A model generated the notes under the pieces. The model did not search any database. It was not told the DNA's origin and saw only the letters and a program-made list of their open reading frames with translations. A stretch of 64,000 nt of DNA from Malacoraja senta (taxonomy: Eukaryota), in the NCBI GenBank assembly GCA_038087875.1, contig CM075991.1:3348001-3412000 (forward strand), read 5' to 3'. The stretch's first letter is position 1. Each line of letters starts with the position of its first letter. Positions 21,845 to 63,025 of the stretch are shown here, piece by piece. The translations under genes were made by a program, and so were the position numbers.

Positions 21845-22508
21845 GGTGAAGAAAGCGAATGGTATGTTAGCTTTCATAGCAAAAGGATTTGAGTATAGGA
21901 GCAGGGAGGTTCTACTGCAGTTGTACAGGGTCTTGGTGAGACCACACCTGGAGTATTGCGTACAGTTTTGGTCTCCAAATCTGAGGAAGGACATTATAGC
22001 CATAGAGGGAGTGCAGAGAAGGTTCACCAGACTGATTCCTGGGATGTCAGGACTTTCATATGAAGAAAGACTGGATAGACTTGGCTTATACTCGCCAGAA
22101 TTTAGGAGATTGAGAGGGGATCTTATAGAAACGTACAAAATTCTTATGGGGTTGGACAGGCTAGATGCAGGAAGATTGTTCCTGATGTTGGGGAAGTCCA
22201 GGACAAGGGGTCACAGCTTAAGGATAAGGGGGAAATCCTTTAAGACCGAGATGAGGAAATACTTTTTCACACAGAGTGGTGAATCTCTGGAACTCTCTGC
22301 CACAGAGGGTAGTTGAGGCCAGTTCATTGGCTATATTTAAGAGGGAGTTAGATGTGGCCCTTGTGGCTAAGGGGATCAGGGGGTATGGAGAGAAGGCAGG
22401 TACGGGATACTGAGTTGGATGATCAGCCATGATCATATTGAATGGCGGTGCAGGCTCGAAGGGCCGAATGGCCTACTCCTGCACCTATTTTCTATGTACC
22501 TATGTATC
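21845..22508 (+). mobile_element. Young CR1 (HER1-like) 3' portion nested in an older CR1
   Basis: [40 protein letters not shown]-type tail. Confidence 0.92.
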
Positions 22509-22950
22509 TGATAGAGGTGTATAAGGTCTTGAGGGGAACGGATAGGGAGAATGTACCCAGTCTTTTACCCAGAGTAGTGGAATCAATACATTTGGACAGG
22601 TACATGGATAGGATAGGTTTAGAGGGGTATGGGCCAAAGGGGGGGGGAGGTTCTACTTGTGTAGATGGGGCACCTTGGTTTGCATGGGCAAGTTGGGCCT
22701 GTTTCTGTGCTGTACATCTTTTTGCCTCTATCACTCTACCCCTTTCATCAGTATATTCCAGATCATGACAGCTCGCTGCTTGAAAATATTCTCCTCTCCA
22801 TTCCATTGCTGATTATTTTAAATCCCCCTCCCCCTCCCCACCCTTGGTATATTTGCCTTCATTAGTCAGAGCATTGAGTGTTTCGGCGACTGCCAGCATC
22901 ATTGACTGACGTATCAGGTCATCGAAAAAGTCGCGGTGTATTGATGACAT

Positions 22951-25900
22951 TGTGGCGGTTCCTGAGGAGAAGGCCACTCCTGGTTCATCCCCCACAGCAC
23001 TTCATGGAGAGGTCCGGGGTGGCTTCCAGCAGGGAAGATAAAAGCAGGGACTTTTGGCGTGAGACCAGTCTTCAGTCTCTCACTGAAGCGGAGAGTAGTG
23101 TGCTGTGCTCATTAAAGCATCTACAGAATTTGCCTGGCTCCTCGCCTGCATTCCTGGCTCTCTCATGCACCCGCTACTCTGGTGACCCTCGACATTTTGT
23201 CGCAAGTCACGATGGACCCGAATGTTCTACAGGACACACAACCCGGTCAACCGCCCTTGCACCTTGTGCCCTGCCGGCCCCGCCGATCTCCACGCCGTTG
23301 CGCTGAAGCTGCCTACCCTGTGGACCGACGAGCCCGAGATCTGGTTTGACCAGGCCGAGGCGCAGTTTGAACTGCGGGACGTGATGGCAGATGCAACGAA
23401 ATACTATTATATTATCAGCGCCCGCGACCAGGCCTCTGCACGACGGGTTAGGCTTTTTCTCCGCTCCCCCTGGAGGCCCTTAAGGCCCTACTCTTACGTA
23501 GGTTAGGCCTCAGCGAGGCCGAACGGGCGACCCAAATCTTGCGGATGACTGGCCTGGGTGACCACAGGCCCTCGGCCCTGCTGGGTGATATGCTGGCCCT
23601 TATGGGCGACCGCAAGCCCTGTTTTCATTTTAAACATGCCTACCTGCAGCAGCTCCCGTCAGACATCCGCCTACAGCTTATCAGCGACCCCTTCACCGAC
23701 ATGCAGTAAGTGGGCGAGCGCGCCAATCAACTTTGGATGGCCCGTCAGCAGGCCCTGGATGCACTGGAGAGCCGCCCGACGTCGCCGGGCAGCGCACAGC
23801 AGGTCGGTGCTTCAATTGACCGCCCTCCGCGGCGGGATCCGGCCACCATTGTGCACCCGGGCGCCGGCACGTCGTCCCAGCATGGCCTGCTGTCGATTCC
23901 TTTGGACGCCACCAGAGGTCGCTGGTGGTCAGATCAACCCGCACCTCCACCTGTTTCTTCAGACGCCAGCAGGGGGAGCTGGTGCTACTATCAATGCCCC
24001 TGGGGGGCTGCAGCTCGTTAGCGTCGGCAGCCATGTACGATCCCGGGAAATGCATGGGCCGGCCGTCAGTGATTGCCTCGGCGGCCGGCCAGATTCATCG
24101 CGTGTTTGCGTGGGATCGCCGCACTGGGGGTCCTTTCCTTGTCGACACCGGGGCAGAAATAAGTGTGCTGCCCCCTTCTCACCGTGCCGGTAAATGCGGT
24201 AGGTATTGTAACATCGCTACATATGGTCCCCAAGGCGGACGGTGGCTGGTGCCCTTGCGGAGACTAATGATTAATGATGCCACCATCGCTGACAGGTACC
24301 GATCCCTCATTTCAAGATTTCAATGCGCACCTGGCCGGGGCAGCGGTGTTCTCCAAGGTCAACCTGGTGCATGGCAATCAAATTCCTGTCCATCCCAACG
24401 ACATGCCCAAGATGGCCATCACAACACCATTTGGCCTTTTTGAATTCCTGTGCATGCCATTCGGGCTTAAGAACACTGCGCAGGCCCTTCAGCGGCCTAT
24501 GGACTGCGTGTGCCGTGGCCTGGACTTTGTGTTTGTTTACCTCGACGACATCTTGGTGGCAAGCCGCTTGCGGCAGGAGCATTGTAGCCATCTCCGCCAG
24601 CTATGCCAGTGGCTCAGCGATCATGGGCTGGCCGTCAATATAGCCAAATGCTGTTTCGGGGTGACGTCCATTGATTTCCTGGGCCTTCACGTAAATCCAC
24701 AGGGTGCGGTGCTGCTCCCGGCCAAGGTAGACGCTGTGCGCCAGTTTGCACCACCAGCCACCGTGAGGAGCCTCCAGGAATTCGTTGGGATGGTGGCCTT
24801 CTACCACCGTTTTTACCGTCCGCGGCCAGGATCGTGCGCCCGCTGTTTCACCCCATGGCGGGCAAACGAAAGGAGGTCGAATGGACTGACGAAGTGGTGG
24901 CTTCGTTCCACCAGGCCAAGGAGGTCCTGGCAACGGGCCACGAAGCTCATGCACCCACGGGCGGATGCACCAATCGGGTTGACGGTCGACGCATCCGAGA
25001 TAGCGGTTGGAGCGGTGCTAGAGCAGCTGATCGATGGCCGTTGGCGGCCTCTGGCCTTCTTCAGCGGCGCACAGCGGTACTACAGTGCCTTCGACCGCGA
25101 GCTCCTCGCCCTTTACCTCAACGTGCGCCACTTCCGTTACTTTTTGGAGGGGTGGACATTTACAACTTACACGGACCATAAGCCCCTCACCGTTGCATTC
25201 GCCAAGGTTTCCAACCCGTGGTCCGCTCGCCAGCAGCGGTAGTTGCCGTTCGTCTCGCAATACACGACCTCTATTCGTTTGATCGAGGGCAAAGACAAGA
25301 GAGTAGCCAACGCCTTGTCTCGACCCGCGGACAACACCATTTTGCAGGTGTCCAACGGCATTGACTACTCAGCCCTGGCTGCTGCCCAGCTGACGGATGA
25401 TGAGATGTCCGTCTATCGTACGGCAGTTTCGGGCCTGCGGTTGGAGGACGTTCCATGTGGCCCCGGGGGTGCGAGGCTGCTGTGCGACGTCTCGACTGGT
25501 CAGCCGCGGCCCATCGTCCCCGTTGCCTGGCGGCGCAGAGTGTTCGAGGTGCTCCACGGGCTGGCCCACCCTCCCGTTCGGGCGATGACGGCCCTCGTGG
25601 CTTCCCGTTTCATGTGGCACGGGTTGCGCAAACAGGTTGGGCATTGGGCGCACACCTGCATCCCGTGACACACTGCCAAGGTACAGCGACATGTGCGGGC
25701 CCCGCTCTAGGAGTTCCGCGACCCATGCCAGCAGTTTGACCATGTCCACGTGGACATCGTGGGGCCGCTGCCGCCTTCTCGGGGATTCACCCACCTCCTG
25801 ACCGTGGTCGACCGTTTCACGGGGTGGCTGGAAGCGGTTCCATTGGCAGACACCTCTGCGGCCACGTGCCCGTGCTTTGGCGGCACACTGGATTGCCCGA

Positions 25901-26939
25901 TTCGGAGTGCCGATGGACATTACGTCCGACCGGGAGCCTCGGTTCGCGTCTGAACTGTGGTTGGCCATAGCTCGCCTTATCGGGGTTAACCTGCACCGCA
26001 TCACGGCGTATCATCCGCAGACGAACGGCCTGGTGGAGCGTTTACACCGGCAACTCAAGCTGCCCTGAAGGCTCGGCTCACGGACCCGGACTGGGTCGAC
26101 GCATTGCCGTGGGTTTTGCTGGGTGTCCGCCCCGCGCTCAAAGAGGACTTGGCCACCTCCTCAGCTGAGTTGGTGTATGGGGCCCCGCTGATAGTGCCCA
26201 GTGAGTTCATCCCATCAGAACAGGGCCAGACGGAGCAGCCATCAGACGCCCTGCGACGGCTTCGGGAGACGGTGGGCAAGCTGGCACCGGTGCCGACGTC
26301 TCGCCACGGTTCGTTCAGGCCGCACGTTCCTTCCGCTCTCCTGGACTGCCCCTTTGTTTTCCTGCGTCAGGACGTGCACCGGACGCCCCTTCAGCGGCCG
26401 TACTAAGAACCATTCAAGGTCCTCGAGTATGGCCCTTCCACTTTTGTTTTAGACATGGGGGGGTCGTCGTGAGACGGTCTTCGTTGCACGGCTGAAGCCG
26501 GCACACATGGACATCAGCCAGCCGGTGCTACTTGCGCGGCCTCGCCCTCAGGGTCACCCTCCGTTCCGGCCTATTCCCCAAGTGCCCGCGCCACCACCTA
26601 CGCCTGGCAGTGTGTCTCCGGTTCCTGCGCCCGCCGTGGTGCGCACACGGGCTGGTCGTCCCCTACGTCCCCCTGTCCGTTTCGTGCCTTCGGTTCTGGG
26701 AGCGGGTCCTGTGCCGGTTTCTGAGGAGTAGGCCACTCCCTGGTTCATCCCCCTCGACACTTCATGGACATGTCCGGGGACGGCTCCCAGCTGCGAAGAT
26801 AAAAGCAGGGATTTTTGACGCGAGACCAGTCTTCAGTCTCTCACTGAAGTGGAGAGTAGTGTGCTGTGCTCATTAAAGCCTCTACAGAATTTGCCTGGCT
26901 CCTCGCCTTCAATCCTGGCTCTCTCACGCGCCCGCTACA
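22951..26939 (+). mobile_element. Decayed Ty3/Gypsy LTR retrotransposon (gag-PR-RT-RH-IN) with both LTRs
   Basis: LTRs at 22951-23178 and 26710-26939; gag LKLPTLW..PEIWF.QAEAQF; PR FLVDTGA; RT YLDD; RH VDAS..TDHKPL; IN DIVGPLP..YHPQTNGLVER; purine tract before the 3' LTR. Confidence 0.95.
23180..23197 (+). promoter_or_regulatory. Primer-binding site, tRNA-Trp-like
   Basis: TGGTGACCCTCGAC directly after the 5' LTR; the complement of the vertebrate tRNA-Trp 3' end is TGGTGACCCCGAC. Confidence 0.75.
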
Positions 26940-27192
26940 CTGGTGTTTTTTCAAGTGCCGCAACTTTTTTTTTGTCGCCATTGGATTTTGAAACGTTCAA
27001 ATCTTTTGGCGACCCTGATGTGACGCCGGCAGTCGGCGAAAAAAATCGCCAAGTGGGACAGGCCCTTAAGAGTCAGGAAGTCATGTTGCAACATTATAGA
27101 ACTTCGGTTAGACCCCATTTGTAATATTGTGTCCAGTACTATTCACCCCTTTTTGGGCAGCAAGGTGGCGCTGCGGTAGAGTTGCTGCCTAA

Positions 27193-27787
27193 AAGGCCTG
27201 TCTCACGAGTCTGCGGTCATTGGCGGCGAAACGGGAAGAATCTGCCGCCATAGACCGCGCACTTGTGAGAACGCACAATTCCGGGGCCGTGCGGCGGTGT
27301 TCCCAACACCGCACGGAGCTAAAATAAAACCGACAATGTTGAACTCAACGCACAACCTCCACCAGTGATGCACGAGTGCGGCACGGCCGCCCGCACGGGC
27401 CGCCGCCAGTGTGGCTCGAGCGCCATGCGTCAAACCTCCACTGCCACAGCCTCCGCCAGTGAGGCACGTGCCTCCGCCAGTGAGGCACGTGTGCGGCACA
27501 GCCGCAGGCATAGCCACCGCTACAGCGCCGCGATCAGGATGGCCGCCGCCACAGCCGCCGCTGGTGAGTCACGTGCGGCGGGCCGACGTCATCGCAGTCG
27601 GCCCGCCCTTTTTTTTACTTACCGCAAGCACGTGGGACCCGCCGTGTTTGAATTACTCGGCCCCCGCGCAGCATCCGTGCGGCGCTCCAGTGGATAGGCT
27701 CGGCGCTCTCGCCGTTGCCGTGCGGTCCCCGCTACCGGCGACGCCGCGCTTCACCGCCGATGACCGCAAACAGGTAAGACAGAGCCT
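27193..27787. mobile_element. GC-rich Harbinger-like MITE
   Basis: Imperfect TIRs AAGGCCTGTCTCAC / GTAAGACAGAGCCT, flanked by TAA and TTA; internal 21-bp tandem repeat. Confidence 0.65.
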
Positions 27788-27790
27788 TTA

Positions 27791-28105
27791 AAGCCCTGTC
27801 CCACTTCATTCATTCAAAAGTTCTCCCGAGTTTGCCCTGATTCGAACTCGGAGATTTACGGTAATGGCCGCTTGTGGGTACTCGGGGCTCTCGTGGACAT
27901 TCTTCAACATGTTGAAAAATCTTCACGAGTCTTCCCGAGCTTACCGCGTTTCCCGAGTACCTGCCATTAGTGTTACAAGCCGCTAAGAGACGTCCCCGAG
28001 CTCCGATGTAACCGCTAGGAAACATTCTACGTGCTTCCATGAGTTTGATTATTTTTTTTTACCCGGGAGAGCTCTTGAATGAACTCGTACAGTGGGACAG
28101 GGCTT
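27791..28105. mobile_element. PIF/Harbinger-like MITE, family with CCCTGTCCCAC TIRs
   Basis: TIRs AAGCCCTGTCCCAC / GTGGGACAGGGCTT; TTA on both sides. Confidence 0.8.
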
Positions 28106-46220: not shown

Positions 46221-47070
46221 TCAAATCTGAGAAGGTTATTTGGAAGGCAATGGGGGATAAGGAGGTGGATTGGGCAAGGTAAGGTGCGGAGAGTAAGCAC
46301 TGATAACTCATTGAATCCTTATGGCACTCTCAACATCCTGAAACTTAGCATCTTTTCTCTGGTGAACCAGGAGCATTCGCAGTTGCTCCATTTATTGGAA
46401 ACAGATTTTTGGAAACTGCGATGTTTATACTCTGAAAAACAGTAACACATTTCAAAATTATTAAATTCAGAAAGTTGCCTGTCATTTTTTTTTTCAAAAG
46501 CAGAACGCAAATACTTGGCTCCATTGACTACTCTGGCCCTGGATAAGGAGCAATTCTTGCTTCAATCAAAGTCTGCTCTTTGAGCCTCGCCAGTAATAAT
46601 CCTTCATGAAAGTTGATGGATTTGAGAACATGTCCAAGGAATGTATGGTAAAACGGCGCAAGATTATGATCATTACTTGCTGATACTGTGGGGACTGAGG
46701 CTGAAGTAGATGGCCCAGGATTTACTGATTTCAGTCACAAACTATTTACGTCTACCCCTCAGTTTGTTACCCAGCAGAATATCGAACTCCAATCCATTTC
46801 TAGGGTCGTCGAGTCGCGTAGCACAGGAAACAGACTCCTTGATCCAACTCATCCGTGCCGACCAAATTGCTTATCTCAGCTAGTCCCAGATCCTTCTAAA
46901 CCTTTTCCGTACGCCTACCTATAAAATATTCCTTTTAAACGCTGTAATTGTATTTGCCTCTACAACTTATTCTGGCAGCTTGTTCCACATACCAACCACC
47001 CTCTGTCTGAAAAGTTGCTCCCTTCTCTTCTTCTTGCCTAGCCTAAAGTTGTAGGACAATTGTTCTATTT

Positions 47071-47221
47071 GGAGTCAGGTACTTTTCGGCACCGCCGTTT
47101 CGGCACCTCCGTTTATAATATCTGTACTCATCAGAACCCTAACCCTAACCCTAACCCTTACCCTAACCCTTACACCCCAAAACGGCAGCGTCGAAACGGC
47201 AGCGCCGAATGGTACCATTCC
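47071..47221. mobile_element. MULE-like MITE carrying telomeric (CCCTAA)n
   Basis: 9-bp TSD GTTCTATTT/GCTCTATTT; GG...CC ends; subterminal inverted TTCGGC repeats; (AACCCT)n at ~47135-47171. Confidence 0.65.
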
Positions 47222-47258
47222 GCTCTATTTGATCTTATTTGATTGTGCACATCAGGTT

Positions 47259-47312
47259 GATTGCATTCGTCGAAACAGGGTGGATCACGTGAAGGTTGCA
47301 ATCTCCCAACCC
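47259..47312 (-). ncRNA. HDV-like ribozyme fold, copy C (mismatches in P1 and P3)
   Basis: GGGTTGG GA GATTGCA ACC TTCACGT GAT CCACCCT GTTTCGAC GAA TGCAATC. Confidence 0.7.
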
Positions 47313-60870: not shown

Positions 60871-61546
60871 CCTTTTCGTACCCTAGACAAACTTTTTTGC
60901 AAACGTTACCAAGCCTGAATTAACTGGATTCTATGGCGCATTAGCCTTGGAATGGCAACGTGATTTACAAAAGCAATTAAATTAAAAACTCAAAAACTTT
61001 TAAACTCGTTTAAGTACAAAATCTTACACAAGTTTCCCGTAGCTTATTCCCACTGCATACTTGCTTGATGCATTCATGCACCGAAAACCACGGGGGATTA
61101 CTTCAGCATGTTCCCCGTCTCCTATATATATTTTTTAGCTTGGCATTTCGTTGCATATTCCTGGGCTGTATGTTCTAGCTTCTCCCTAGTGATGCAGAGA
61201 TTTGAACACTGACTACATTATTACACACAAGGCAGTAACTCTCTCTCAACAAACAGCCTGCTGTGCTTTGCCATGTCTATATCCAGCTGACCTACTCATT
61301 TTGATTAGGTTGTCTCATTACACACACCTCATTACTGTTCTTAGATGCAATACATGCAGACATAACACTAATCCCTCATTATACAAGGAAAAGATAGAAA
61401 CTCAATTAATTGCAATGTCCTTTCAACATATATTTATAATTAACATTGCTCTTCTTGAATAAGACTTTAGGTTAGGGTTCCGTGTAAGAAGAAAATGCAC
61501 ATGCTTCTTCTTGTGTATGGCGTGCACAGCCTAAAATTGTAGGACA

Positions 61547-62249
61547 TCAGTCTATGAAAGTAAGCATGCAGGTACAGCAGGCAGTGAAGAAAGCCAATGG
61601 CATGTTGGCCTTTATAACAAGTTGAATCGAATATAGGAGCAAAAAGGTCCTTCTGCAGTTGTACAGAGCCCTAGTGAGACCACACCTGGAGTATTGTGTG
61701 CAGTTTTGGTCCCTAATATGAGGAAGGACATTCTTACTATTGAGGGAGTGCAGCGTAGGTTTACAAGGTTAATTCCCGGGATGGCGGGACTGTCATATGC
61801 TGAGAGAATGGAGCAGCTGGGCTTGTACACTCTGGAGTTTAGAAGGATGAGAGGGAATCTCATTGAAACATATAAAGATTGTTAAGGGCTTGGAACACGC
61901 TAGAGGCAGGAAACATGTTCCCGATGTTGGGGGAGTCCAGACCAGGACCACAGTTTAAGAATAAGGAGTAAGCCATTTAGAACGGAGACGAGGAAACACT
62001 TTTTCTCACAGAGAGTGGTGAGTCTGTGGAATTCTCTGCCCCAGAGGGCGGTGGAGGCAGGTTCTCTGGATGCTTTCAAGAGAGAGCTAGATAGGGCTCT
62101 TAAAAATAGCGGAGCCAGGGGATATGGGGAGAAGGCAGGAACGGGTACAGATTGGGGATGATCAGCCATGATCACATTGAATGGCGGTGCTGGCTCAAAG
62201 GGCCAAATGGCCTACTCCTGCACCTATTGTCTATTGTCTATTGTCTATT
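61547..62249 (+). mobile_element. CR1, (CTATTGT)n-tail subfamily
   Basis: CR1 C-terminal coding remnants and tail. Confidence 0.9.
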
Positions 62250-62286
62250 GTTCTCTTTGATCTTATTTGATTGTGCACGCCAGGTT

Positions 62287-62340
62287 GATTGCATTCGTCG
62301 AAACAGGGCGGACCACGTGAAGTTTGCAATCTCCCACCCC
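62287..62340 (-). ncRNA. HDV-like ribozyme fold, copy B
   Basis: GGGGTGG GA GATTGCA AAC TTCACGT GGT CCGCCCT GTTTCGAC GAA TGCAATC. Confidence 0.78.
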
Positions 62341-62883
62341 ACTGCAGATGCTGGTTTACACCGAAGATAGACACAGCATTTTGCAGTAACTCAGCGGGTC
62401 AGGCAACGGCCCTGGAGAAAAGGAATAGGTGACGTTTTGGGTCGAGACCCTTCTTCAGACGTCACCCTGTCTGAGGAAGGGTCATGACCCAAAACATCAC
62501 CTATTCCTTTTCTCCAGGGATGCTGCCAGACCCTCTGAGTTACTCCAGCATTTAGTGTCTGTCTTGGGATAGGTTCTAGCGCCTATGAAGCCTTCGTTAA
62601 TGTCCTAATACCTGATGCATTCTTATTATCTCCATTTGCTCACCAGCTCAAGTCAAGTTTATTGTCACTTGCACAAGAAGGGTGAGGTACATTGAAAACT
62701 ATTGGCACATAGAATCAGCATAGACCTGGTCAGCACACTTGATACAAGATGGCACAGTGGTGCAGTGGTAGAGTTGCTGCCTCACAGTGTTACAGGCCTG
62801 GCTGCTGTCTGTATGGAGTTTGTATATTCTCCCTGTGACCGTGTGGGTTTTCTCCTGGTGCTCCAGTTTCATCTGAATGTACT

Positions 62884-63025
62884 TCTTCTTCTTCTTGTGT
62901 ATGGCGTGCACAGCCTAAAGTTGTCGGACAACTTGTTCTATTTGATCTTATTTGATTGTGCACGCCAGGTTGATTGCATTGGTTGAAACAGGGCGGACCA
63001 CGTGAAGGTTGCAATCTCCCACCCC
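62884..63025 (-). mobile_element. HDV-ribozyme-headed short retroposon, copy A (uninterrupted, ~140 bp)
   Basis: TSD ATCTGAATGTACT at 62871-62883 and 63026-63038; (GAA)n tail. Confidence 0.9.
62972..63025 (-). ncRNA. HDV-like ribozyme fold, copy A
   Basis: GGGGTGG GA GATTGCA ACC TTCACGT GGT CCGCCCT GTTTCAAC CAA TGCAATC; P1, P2 and P3 fully paired. Confidence 0.8.

What the first reader, a model, noticed from the sequence alone, without database searches (positions are those of the whole stretch)
62884..63025. SINE-like retroposon headed by a minimal HDV-like self-cleaving ribozyme instead of a tRNA promoter
Seen: a ~140-bp minus-strand element with a 13-bp TSD (ATCTGAATGTACT), a (GAA)n tail and no Pol III A/B boxes. 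The consensus of 3 copies for the first 54 nt is GGGGUGG-GA-GAUUGCA-ACC-UUCACGU-GGU-CCGCCCU-G-U-UUCG-A-C-GAA-UGCAAUC. This maps onto the HDV nested double pseudoknot: P1 GGGGUGG/CCGCCCU with a G1-U wobble; P2 GAUUGCA/UGCAAUC; P3 ACC/GGU; a 7-nt L3; a G available for P1.1; a vestigial P4 capped by UUCG; and a C75-equivalent followed by GAA in J4/2. In all three copies the TSD-defined 5' end is exactly G1, the HDV cleavage position. Established: HDV-like ribozymes process the 5' ends of R2, RTE and ingi/L1Tc retroelements and of some of their non-autonomous derivatives. Inference: this is a promoterless vertebrate SINE that cuts itself out of read-through transcripts and borrows an RTE- or Ingi/Vingi-type RT. 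I do not know of it being described in elasmobranchs, but I cannot verify that it is new.
Basis: partly seen in the sequence, partly recalled or inferred. Interest (0 to 1): 0.92.

Follow-up and report, generated by a model that had tools for sequence, protein, structure and literature searches.

The report
Short retroposon headed by HDV-like ribozyme
A 140-base mobile element present in thousands of copies begins with a stripped-down self-cutting RNA of the hepatitis-delta/CPEB3 type, which most likely trims the element out of longer transcripts so that a partner LINE can copy it; I found no report of this design for a high-copy vertebrate element.

Summary
At window 63025-62884 (minus strand) lies a 142-nt element with a 12-13-bp target-site duplication and an (AAG)n tail. 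Its first 54 nt fit the HDV nested double pseudoknot: P1 7 bp, P2 7 bp, P3 3 bp, and a C followed by GAA before P2'. The genome holds at least 2,944 exact copies of the core. Copies start at G1, and the sequence upstream is unrelated between copies.

The decisive new evidence comes from the same genome. RTE-like LINEs of about 3.1 kb (one 940-aa endonuclease plus reverse-transcriptase ORF, (GAA)n tail) begin with full-size ribozymes that pass Rfam's CPEB3-ribozyme threshold (48-64 bits; cut-off 35). These share L3, J1/4 and C-GAA with the short element, while P1, P2 and P3 differ by compensatory changes. In 14 sequences 92% of cells pair, against 72% in shuffles, and 18 of 26 pairs change on both sides. 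The short element lacks P4; a 5-nt linker takes its place, as in "minimal" HDV-like ribozymes.

A second P4-less short family exists. No tRNA, 5S or 7SL similarity and no A/B boxes were found. Self-cleavage, expression and the exact LINE partner were not shown.

The parts
62884..63025 (-). Complete copy of the ribozyme-headed short retroposon (142 nt; subfamily A, J4/2 variant C-CAA)
   Evidence: 100% query; 36 of 40 scored genomic matches span positions 1-142 at 97-100% identity
63026..63038 (-). 5' copy of the target-site duplication AGTACATTCAGAT
62871..62883 (-). 3' copy of the target-site duplication (first A shared with the tail)
63019..63025 (-). [quoted passage not shown]
   Evidence: helix 1: 3 of 7 pairs with changes on both sides across families
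63010..63016 (-). P2 5' strand GAUUGCA (follows J1/2 GA at 63018-63017)
   Evidence: helix 2: 6 of 7 pairs with changes on both sides, 94.9% of cells paired
63007..63009 (-). P3 5' strand ACC
63000..63006 (-). L3 UUCACGU, identical to the Rfam CPEB3-ribozyme consensus loop
   Evidence: 62 of 75 copies keep it exactly
62997..62999 (-). P3 3' strand GGU
62990..62996 (-). P1 3' strand CCGCCCU (G32; A32 in subfamilies B and C turns U5.G into U5-A)
62988..62989 (-). J1/4 GU; G37 can pair with C22 of L3 (P1.1)
   Evidence: C-G in 14 of 14 sequences; GU in 71 of 75 copies
62983..62987 (-). 5-nt linker in place of P4 (UUCAA here; UUCGA in 51 of 75 copies)
62982..62982 (-). C44, in the position of the catalytic cytosine of J4/2
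   Evidence: invariant column; C in 73 of 75 copies; aligned to the C of CGAA/GCUAA in three Rfam HDV-type models
62979..62981 (-). J4/2 CAA (GAA in 42, UAA in 14, AAA in 11, CAA in 6 of 75 copies)
62972..62978 (-). P2 3' strand UGCAAUC
62897..62971 (-). 3' domain: long-range stem GGCGUGCACA/UGUGCACGCC enclosing a small hairpin. The middle varies between subfamilies. The last ~35 nt are conserved and are the presumed RT recognition region.
62884..62896 (-). (AAG)n tail
61505..62340 (-). Second copy: head at 62340-62287 (P3 broken, AAC). It is split near 62250 by an insertion of ~700 bp, and the 3' part lies at ~61546-61505. TSD GCATCTGCAGT/GCATGTGCATT.
47023..47312 (-). Third, older copy: head at 47312-47259 (GGGUUGG / CCACCCU, P3' GAU). 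It is split by an insertion of ~150 bp that contains TTAGGG-like repeats. TSD GGGAGCAACT.

Best explanation
This is a young, high-copy family of promoter-less, non-autonomous non-LTR retroposons. It is SINE-like in size, but closer in logic to the 'SIDEs' of R2.

**Parts.** Nucleotides 1-54 form a P4-less ('minimal') ribozyme of the HDV/CPEB3 fold. Nucleotides 55-142 form a structured 3' domain that ends in (GAA)n.

**Proposed cycle.**
1. A copy lying in any transcribed region is read through by the host polymerase (inferred).
2. The head folds co-transcriptionally and cleaves 5' of G1, releasing an RNA whose first base is G1 (inferred from fold, homology and the genomic 5' ends).
3. An RTE-like LINE of the same genome, which itself starts with a full-size ribozyme of the same lineage and ends in (GAA)n, recognises the 3' end and tail. 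It copies the RNA by target-primed reverse transcription up to G1 (inferred).
4. The result is a full-length insertion with a 10-13-bp TSD (shown).
For: **Anatomy.** All 17 base pairs of P1, P2 and P3, plus C44 before P2', are present. The plain MFE fold gives P1 and P3 and leaves both P2 strands free for the pseudoknot.

**Chance.** The topology-only descriptor gave 1 hit in the window, at G1 = 63025, and 0 hits in 20 resamples.

**Rfam.**
- Of 4,227 families, the only matches to the head are HDV-type ribozymes.
- For a consensus-type copy these are RF00622 at 15.4 bits (E 0.047), RF02682 at 14.4 bits and RF00094 at 13.4 bits. All three place G1 at the cleavage site.

**Homology and covariation.**
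- 39 of 60 listed RF00622 matches in this genome exceed the cut-off, the best at 64.2 bits.
- The top matches are 5' ends of a LINE.
- In alignment A1 (14 sequences: short element, LINEs and other families), 16 columns are invariant. These include most of L3, J1/4 GU, and the C and two As of J4/2.
- 92.4% of cells pair, against 71.9 +/- 1.6 in shuffles (0 of 500 reach it). Slid controls pair at 36-46%. 18 of 26 pairs change on both sides. The covariation score is 0.456 against 0.157.

**5' ends.**
- 39 of 40 scored BLAST matches start at position 1.
- 64 of 75 distinct copies have at most 1 mismatch in the first 8 nt.
- The ten upstream positions carry at most 0.13 bits each.
- 35 of 75 copies have an exact TSD of 7 nt or more ending at -1.
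- In contigs of two other coded organisms, depth falls to about zero (at most 0.9) beyond 63030. Loose ends with unlike flanks pile up at 63025/63026.

**Selection pattern.** The head and the last ~35 nt are conserved between subfamilies A, B and C, while the middle differs. Frequent head variants sit at J1/2 (position 8), U5.G<->U5-A (position 32), the linker (position 42) and the first J4/2 base (position 45).

**Recurrence.** A second P4-less short family exists. It is ~180 nt long, has TSD TCCTACACTCT and an AAGAAGA tail, and scores 36-44 bits on RF00622, above the cut-off.

**Precedent.** Minimal HDV-like ribozymes without P4 self-cleave in vitro (PMC10879173, passages). RTE and baggins elements carry HDV-like ribozymes and lack promoters (PMC6765202, passages).

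**Against Pol III.** Subfamily B also has a T4 run inside its body.
Against: - No cleavage assay and no RNA data exist. No sequencing run on record as RNA held the element.
- The short element's head fails every Rfam gathering score: 15.4 against 35, 14.4 against 44 and 13.4 against 50.
- The whole-element fold energy is not unusual: z = -1.22, and 21 of 200 shuffles fold as well.
- Within the family itself there are no compensatory double changes. Covariation comes only from comparison with other families.
- The catalytic-C to T variant is not rare: 268 copies, against 527 with the neighbouring G to A and 3,189 with CG intact. The CpG asymmetry is only about 2:1 and is weak evidence of selection.
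- Only 44 of 75 copies keep all 17 pairs plus C44. This is expected for decaying insertions but says nothing about source copies.
- The LINE copy examined shares no 3' UTR similarity with the short element beyond 13 nt of (AAG)n: score 26, against a shuffle mean of 20.6 and maximum of 29.
- No LINE with the identical head or tail was found.
- Precise 5' ends would also arise from a fixed transcription start.
Confidence: 0.78

Rival explanations
1. The head is an inactive relic. It descends from a LINE ribozyme but lost activity when P4 was lost. It is kept for another reason, such as binding the LINE protein or RNA stability, and the 5' end is set by some other process.
For: - The head fails all Rfam thresholds.
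- The C44-to-T variant exists in 268 copies.
- No activity data exist.
- R2 protein is known to bind its own 5' ribozyme region (PMC6765202, passage).
Against: - Without cleavage or a promoter, nothing would define G1 as the 5' end in 64 of 75 copies with unrelated upstream sequence.
- All catalytic-core positions shared with threshold-passing ribozymes are retained.
- P4-less HDV-like ribozymes are active in vitro (PMC10879173).
- A second P4-less family also amplified.
Confidence: 0.1
2. It is a conventional SINE transcribed by RNA polymerase III (or from another internal promoter) starting at G1. The ribozyme-like fold is incidental to mobilisation.
For: - A fixed start site would also give precise 5' ends.
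- GTTTCGA at positions 37-43 resembles the core of a B box.
- In L1Tc the same 77 nt act as both promoter and ribozyme (PMC3383444, abstract), so a dual role is conceivable.
Against: - ARAGORN found 0 tRNA genes.
- Rfam gave no tRNA, 5S, 7SL or snRNA match.
- The best A-box and B-box matches have 3 mismatches of 9 specified bases. 89.5% and 67.4% of shuffles do as well.
- Subfamily B carries TTTT inside its body.
- The head aligns helix for helix to LINE 5' ribozymes.
Confidence: 0.07
3. It is a chance resemblance: an ordinary repeat whose 5' end happens to fit an HDV-like descriptor.
For: - Descriptor searches have false positives in large genomes.
- The fold energy is unremarkable.
Against: - The descriptor gave 0 hits in 20 resamples and exactly one hit in the window, at the element's first base.
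- L3, J1/4 and C-GAA match the Rfam CPEB3 consensus in sequence.
- Covariation against related families exceeds every shuffle (0 of 500 reach it).
Confidence: 0.02

Closest known systems
R2 SIDEs and R2/R1 hybrid SIDEs of Drosophila (Eickbush & Eickbush 2012, PMC3414825; abstract and passages read)
   Same: - Short non-autonomous elements made of a 5' HDV-like ribozyme plus a LINE-type 3' end.
- Not Pol III transcribed.
- The ribozyme differs from the LINE's mainly by compensatory changes.
- The hybrid SIDEs pair a ribozyme with a foreign 3' end.
   Different: - SIDEs sit site-specifically in rDNA at low copy number, have full-size ribozymes, and were shown to cleave in vitro.
- This family is dispersed, with at least 2,944 exact cores.
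- It lacks P4.
- Its 3' domain was not matched to any LINE.
- It is untested biochemically.
HDV-like ribozymes at the 5' end of RTE, baggins, R2 and other LINEs (Ruminski et al. 2011; known here only through PMC6765202 passages and recall)
   Same: - Same role: 5' processing of promoter-less elements out of co-transcripts.
- The LINE found here is an ordinary example of this kind.
   Different: - Those are autonomous elements with a P4 helix.
- From recall of that paper's abstract, in some organisms HDV-like ribozymes serve LINEs and hammerheads serve SINEs. A short element with an HDV-like head departs from that pattern.
NARTc, SIDER and other Pr77-bearing non-autonomous elements of trypanosomatids (PMC3185411, PMC4035085, PMC3383444; abstracts)
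   Same: Non-autonomous derivatives that share the LINE's 5' HDV-like ribozyme.
   Different: - They occur in protists.
- The 77-nt unit is also an internal promoter.
- They have a poly(A)-type L1Tc/ingi partner.
- Their ribozyme is not P4-less.
Minimal HDV-like ribozymes (drz-Mtgn; theta ribozymes) (Riccitelli 2014, cited from PMC10879173; PMC10879173 passages read)
   Same: - They lack the P4 domain, at a total size of about 50-60 nt.
- The catalytic C lies in J4/2.
- They are active in vitro and inactivated by C-to-U.
   Different: - Nearly 99% of known examples are in gut bacteriophages, next to tRNAs (PMC10879173).
- This one heads a retroposon in an animal genome.
- Its core sequence is CPEB3-like.
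Mammalian CPEB3 ribozyme (Rfam RF00622)
   Same: - L3 UUCACGU, CCCUGU and C-GAA are identical to the model consensus.
- The LINE heads of this genome pass the family's gathering score at 48-64 bits.
   Different: - The CPEB3 ribozyme is a single-copy intronic element of mammals with an 18-nt P4.
- The short element scores only 9-15 bits and has different P1, P2 and P3 sequences.
Hammerhead-bearing SINE-like elements of Schistosoma (Sm-alpha) (PMC6765202, passage)
   Same: A short interspersed element that carries a self-cleaving ribozyme.
   Different: - Different ribozyme class.
- Those are reported as Pol III transcribed and cut out of multimeric transcripts.

Membership tests
HDV-like (delta) self-cleaving ribozymes | Nested double pseudoknot in the order P1-J1/2-P2-P3-L3-P3'-P1'-J1/4-(P4)-J4/2-P2', with a 7-bp P1 and a 3-bp P3 | tested here: met
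   - all 17 pairs form.
- 92.4% of cells pair across 14 related sequences, and 18 of 26 pairs change on both sides.
HDV-like (delta) self-cleaving ribozymes | Cleavage-site G1 closing P1 with a G.U wobble | tested here: met
   - G1 (63025) lies opposite U36 (62990).
- G.U is seen in 7 of the 12 sequences with letters at that pair.
- Cleavage itself was not tested.
HDV-like (delta) self-cleaving ribozymes | Cytosine in J4/2 just upstream of P2' (the general acid) | tested here: met
   - C44 is an invariant column in A1.
- It is C in 73 of 75 copies.
- It aligns to the corresponding C of three Rfam models.
HDV-like (delta) self-cleaving ribozymes | P1.1 pairing between L3 and J1/4 | tested here: inconclusive
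   C22-G37 is possible and invariant in 14 of 14 sequences. An invariant pair says nothing for or against pairing, and a second pair is not available.
HDV-like (delta) self-cleaving ribozymes | P4 helix | tested here: not met
   A 5-nt linker (UUCGA) replaces the 18-31-nt P4 of the related LINE ribozymes. P4 is dispensable in the 'minimal' subgroup (PMC10879173).
HDV-like (delta) self-cleaving ribozymes | Divalent-ion-dependent self-scission giving 5'-OH and 2',3'-cyclic phosphate | not testable with these tools
   This needs an in vitro transcription and cleavage assay.
Rfam RF00622 / RF00094 / RF02682 | Score at or above the curated gathering threshold | tested here: not met
   - Short element: 15.4 against 35, 13.4 against 50 and 14.4 against 44 bits.
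- Window copy: 9.1 and 11.9 bits.
- The threshold is met by the LINE heads and by the second short family, at 37-64 bits.
SINE in the strict sense | Internal Pol III promoter derived from tRNA, 7SL or 5S RNA | tested here: not met
SINE in the strict sense | Short, non-coding, dispersed, with TSDs and a LINE-type 3' tail | tested here: met
SIDE (short internally deleted element of a ribozyme-bearing LINE) | Both ends derived from the partner LINE (5' ribozyme and 3' UTR) | tested here: inconclusive
   - The 5' core is shared with the LINE ribozymes.
- The 3' domain has no similarity to the one full LINE copy examined, apart from (AAG)n.
- Other LINE families could not be fetched.
RTE-clade LINE (for the candidate partner) | About 3.2 kb, with a single ORF (APE endonuclease + RT), a short UTR and a simple-repeat tail | tested here: met
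   - 940-aa ORF, element of ~3.13 kb, (GAA)3 tail, TSD.
- RVT_1 at 2.3e-32 and Exo_endo_phos_2 at 3.1e-8.
- homologues of 900-1,050 aa, mostly on contigs of 3.0-3.4 kb.
RTE-clade LINE (for the candidate partner) | Phylogenetic placement of the RT within named RTE references | not tested
   No named reference set was available. The label 'RTE-like' rests on architecture and recall.

The most novel reading that the evidence does not exclude
An RTE-type LINE and short-element ribozyme lineage of this fish-like genome is a sequence-level relative of the mammalian CPEB3 ribozyme. The LINE heads score 48-64 bits on the 'mammalian' Rfam model. L3, P3, J1/4 and C-GAA are identical, and P2 is nearly so. 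On this reading the CPEB3 ribozyme is an exapted retrotransposon head. The short element would then show that a 54-nt P4-less core is enough in vivo, in a vertebrate, to drive promoter-less amplification to thousands of copies, with every copy in a transcribed region acting as a potential source.
Probability: 0.35. Interest if true: 0.82.

Novelty: new variant of a known kind. Interest (0 to 1): 0.68.

Why it matters
- **A third way to make a SINE-like element.** Such elements normally have a Pol III promoter head or are an internally deleted rDNA SIDE. This one is a promoter-less, genome-wide family whose only 5' function is a minimal self-cleaving ribozyme.
- **A eukaryotic home for P4-less ribozymes.** It would give these HDV-like ribozymes a eukaryotic context and a natural function. 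So far nearly all examples come from phages.
- **A natural mutational data set.** At least 4,000 copies and several subfamilies show which core positions tolerate change.
- **A lead on the CPEB3 ribozyme.** The companion LINE ribozymes pass the 'mammalian CPEB3' model in a non-mammal. This makes the origin of the CPEB3 ribozyme directly testable by phylogeny.
- **A practical use.** A 54-nt, naturally validated 5'-processing module is of interest for RNA engineering.

Tried and rejected
1. **LINE with the same head.** A pattern requiring the head followed by non-element sequence gave 18 matches. All were internally deleted or interrupted copies.
2. **LINE with the same tail.** Two patterns gave 66 and 20 matches. 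They revealed subfamilies B and C, hairpin-deleted copies and 5'-truncated copies, but no LINE.
3. **L056.** It looked like a LINE 3' end but abuts a different old repeat with 8,325 candidates.
4. **The 3.1-kb periodic array on contig C20.** It is a segmental tandem duplication containing a subfamily-B copy, not a LINE array.
5. **3' domain against the LINE.** Comparison with the full LINE copy shared only (AAG)n.
6. **CpG-asymmetry test for selection on C44.** Counts were 268 (C to T), 527 (G to A) and 3,189 intact. The signal is weak and is not used as support.
7. **RNA evidence.** No RNA holder was listed. The two 'RNA?' runs that were laid are contigs and may be DNA, so they say nothing about expression or RNA ends.
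8. **Raw DNA runs X21 and X22.** 0 reads were laid, so they are no test.
9. **Rfam at gathering or E<=10 on 901 nt.** No ribozyme hit; only a sub-threshold snR65 chance match.
10. **Earlier findings of this scan.** Nothing by place, sequence or words.
11. **Papers not held.** Ruminski 2011, Webb 2009 and Webb & Luptak 2011. Their content is cited from recall or through reviews only. Their text and supplements may already list vertebrate or short-element examples.

Full report
**1. The observation**

Read on the minus strand, window 63025-62884 is a 142-nt element. It begins GGGGTGGGAG and ends in (AAG)5. AGTACATTCAGAT lies immediately upstream at 63038-63026 and again immediately after the tail at 62883-62871. 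The head occurs three times in the window (63025, 62340, 47312; all minus strand) and 0 times in 100 shuffles.

The other two copies are split by later insertions. They still have TSDs that abut G1.

**2. Family size, age and ends**

- The assembly is 1.94 Gb. A BLAST first look gave 2,328 candidates. All 40 scored matches are 97-100% identical. 36 of 40 span positions 1-142 and 39 of 40 start at position 1.
- A 24-nt core occurs 2,944 times exactly.
- The J4/2 region occurs 3,189 times with CG, 527 times with CA and 268 times with TG. The family therefore has well over 4,000 members.
- In 75 distinct copies harvested from all fetched loci, 64 have at most 1 mismatch in the first 8 nt. Each of the ten upstream positions carries at most 0.13 bits. 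35 copies have an exact TSD of 7-13 nt ending at -1.
- In a set chosen only by the tail, so unbiased for the head, 25 of 30 loci carry a complete head about 100-110 nt upstream.
- Words of the element occur in runs of at least eight coded organisms from 12 studies.
- In contigs of two of those organisms, depth stops at the same 5' boundary. Loose ends with unlike flanks sit at 63025/63026.

**3. The fold**

| Feature | Sequence |
|---|---|
| P1 | GGGGUGG / CCGCCCU, with G1.U36 |
| J1/2 | GA |
| P2 | GAUUGCA / UGCAAUC |
| P3 | ACC / GGU |
| L3 | UUCACGU |
| J1/4 | GU |
| Linker | UUCGA (5 nt) |
| Catalytic position | C44 |
| J4/2 | GAA |

- All 17 pairs form in the window copy.
- A nested MFE prediction gives P1 and P3 and leaves both P2 strands single-stranded. 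The overall energy is not unusual (z = -1.22).
- A descriptor that encodes only the topology hits the window once, with G1 at 63025, and never in 20 resamples.
- Against 4,227 Rfam families, the head matches only HDV-type ribozymes. All scores are below threshold: 15.4, 14.4 and 13.4 bits for a consensus-type copy, and 9.1 and 11.9 bits for the window copy.
- L3, CCCUGU and C-GAA are identical to the RF00622 consensus printed by the tool.

**4. The decisive context**

Searching the genome with RF00622 gave 60 listed matches, 39 of them above the gathering score (best 64.2 bits).

The top matches are the 5' ends of a repeated element. One copy (L092 + L100) has these features:
- It runs for about 3.13 kb from the ribozyme.
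- It contains a single 940-aa ORF with Exo_endo_phos_2 and RVT_1 domains.
- It has a 3' UTR of about 230 nt and a (GAA)3 tail.
- It is flanked by the TSD ACAGAACAAAA.

Homologues are proteins of 900-1,050 aa, mostly on contigs of 3.0-3.4 kb, from many animals. By architecture this is an RTE-like LINE; its clade was not tested by phylogeny.

Its head has P1 GGGGAUC/GAUCCCU, P2 GUAGAA/UUCUAC, P3 GCG/CGC, L3 UUCACGU, J1/4 GU, a 26-nt P4, and C-GAA.

Other families in the genome:
- **L095:** a long P4 and C-UAA.
- **L108**.
- **L107/L110:** a P4 very like the CPEB3 consensus.
- **A second P4-less family (L101-L106, L109):** GU-UUCCA-C-CAA, 36-44 bits, above the cut-off. A complete copy is about 180 nt, with an AAGAAGA tail and an 11-bp TSD. 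It is a second ribozyme-headed short element.

**5. Covariation**

I aligned 14 sequences from these families (A1). Sixteen columns are invariant. They include most of L3, G37-U38, C44 and A46-A47.

| Measure | Observed | Control |
|---|---|---|
| Cells paired | 92.4% | 71.9 +/- 1.6 in shuffles (0 of 500 reach it); 36-46% when partners are slid |
| Pairs changed on both sides | 18 of 26 | |
| - P1 | 3 of 7 | |
| - P2 | 6 of 7 | |
| - P3 | 2 of 3 | |
| - P4 | 7 of 8 | |
| Covariation score | 0.456 | 0.157 |

The short element's head is thus a structural homologue of ribozymes that pass a curated family threshold. Within the short family itself there is conservation but no compensatory double change.

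The frequent variants lie at position 8 (J1/2), position 32 (U.G to U-A), position 42 (linker) and position 45 (first J4/2 base). All of these positions are structurally tolerant. Three of them are also CpG sites, so mutability contributes.

**6. What argues against the reading**

- There are no cleavage data and no RNA data.
- The head fails all Rfam thresholds.
- C44-to-T copies are not rare (268). The 2:1 excess of the neighbouring G-to-A change is weak evidence.
- 31 of 75 copies have lost at least one pair or C44.
- The 3' domain is unrelated to the one LINE copy examined, except for the tail repeat.
- No LINE with an identical head or tail was found.
- Only 4 exact LINE head cores exist.

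The link to a specific partner is therefore inferred from the shared (GAA)n tail and the shared ribozyme lineage only.

**7. Rivals**

- **Pol III SINE.** Disfavoured. ARAGORN and Rfam find no tRNA, 5S or 7SL similarity. The best A-box and B-box matches are no better than shuffles, and subfamily B carries T4 internally. A dual promoter-and-ribozyme role, as in L1Tc Pr77 (PMC3383444, abstract), cannot be excluded.
- **Inactive relic.** This would leave the exact G1 ends unexplained.
- **Chance.** Excluded.

**8. Comparison with what is known**

- HDV-like ribozymes process the 5' ends of R2, L1Tc, baggins and RTE. RTE and baggins lack promoters (PMC6765202, passages).
- Non-autonomous derivatives are known: R2 and R2/R1 SIDEs (PMC3414825, abstract and passages) and NARTc/SIDER (PMC3185411 and PMC4035085, abstracts).
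- Minimal HDV-like ribozymes lacking P4 are active in vitro, and nearly 99% of them lie in phages (PMC10879173, passages).
- Five full-text searches found no vertebrate or cartilaginous-fish short element with an HDV-like head.
- Dfam and Repbase were not available, and three key papers were not held.

I therefore rate this a new variant of a known kind: known mechanism and known fold, in a new combination. The combination is a P4-less core, a dispersed high-copy short element, and a vertebrate-type genome.

**9. Verdict**

- That the head has the HDV/CPEB3 fold by homology is close to certain.
- That it self-cleaves at G1 and so defines the element's 5' end is the best explanation, at about 0.78.
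- That an RTE-like LINE with a (GAA)n tail supplies the machinery is plausible but unproven.

Noticed in passing
outside the window: L091-L100 (e.g. G000:C1:217550496-217553630): An RTE-like LINE of ~3.13 kb. Its first ~73 nt pass Rfam's 'mammalian' CPEB3-ribozyme threshold at 57-64 bits. 39 of 60 listed genome matches exceed the cut-off. This suggests that the CPEB3 ribozyme belongs to a retrotransposon ribozyme lineage present outside mammals.
   Followed up: partly
outside the window: L101-L106, L109, L111 (e.g. G000:C13:7158718-7158900): A second short (~180 nt) element family with a P4-less ribozyme head (GU-UUCCA-C-CAA), an AAGAAGA tail and an 11-bp TSD. Its copies start at GGGGUC, so P1 would have 6 pairs and G1 would pair with C rather than U.
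   Followed up: partly
outside the window: L107, L110: 5'-truncated ribozyme copies whose P2 and P4 are especially close to the Rfam CPEB3 consensus (51.4 bits for L110).
   Followed up: no
window 62800-62870: The element is inserted next to, or into, another high-copy repeat. Contig depth in two other organisms is as high there as over the element itself. The sequence looks like the body of a different SINE.
   Followed up: no
window ~47070-47224 (minus strand): The insertion that splits the third copy carries TTAGGG-like repeats flanked by inverted GCCG-rich arms (cggcgctgccgtttcg ... cgaaacggcggtgccg). It may be a small terminal-inverted-repeat element with telomere-like repeats inside.
   Followed up: no
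window ~61548-62249 (minus strand); also L058, L109: The ~700-bp insertion that splits the second copy starts with (TAGACAA)n followed by TAGGTGCAGGAGTAGGCC. The same start recurs at other loci, so it is another active repeat family.
   Followed up: no
L056/L079 (G000:C1:360778172-360778731): An older repeat family with 8,325 first-look candidates at 83-87% identity. It ends in ...CCCGATGACGATGAC and lies directly next to a 5'-truncated copy of the short element.
   Followed up: partly
G000:C20:6844481-6860550 (L099): A tandem or segmental array with a period of ~3.1 kb. Each unit contains a subfamily-B copy of the short element.
   Followed up: partly
window 22001-28000: A GC-rich block (0.54-0.60, against ~0.45 around it). 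It may be a CpG island or gene-dense stretch.
   Followed up: no
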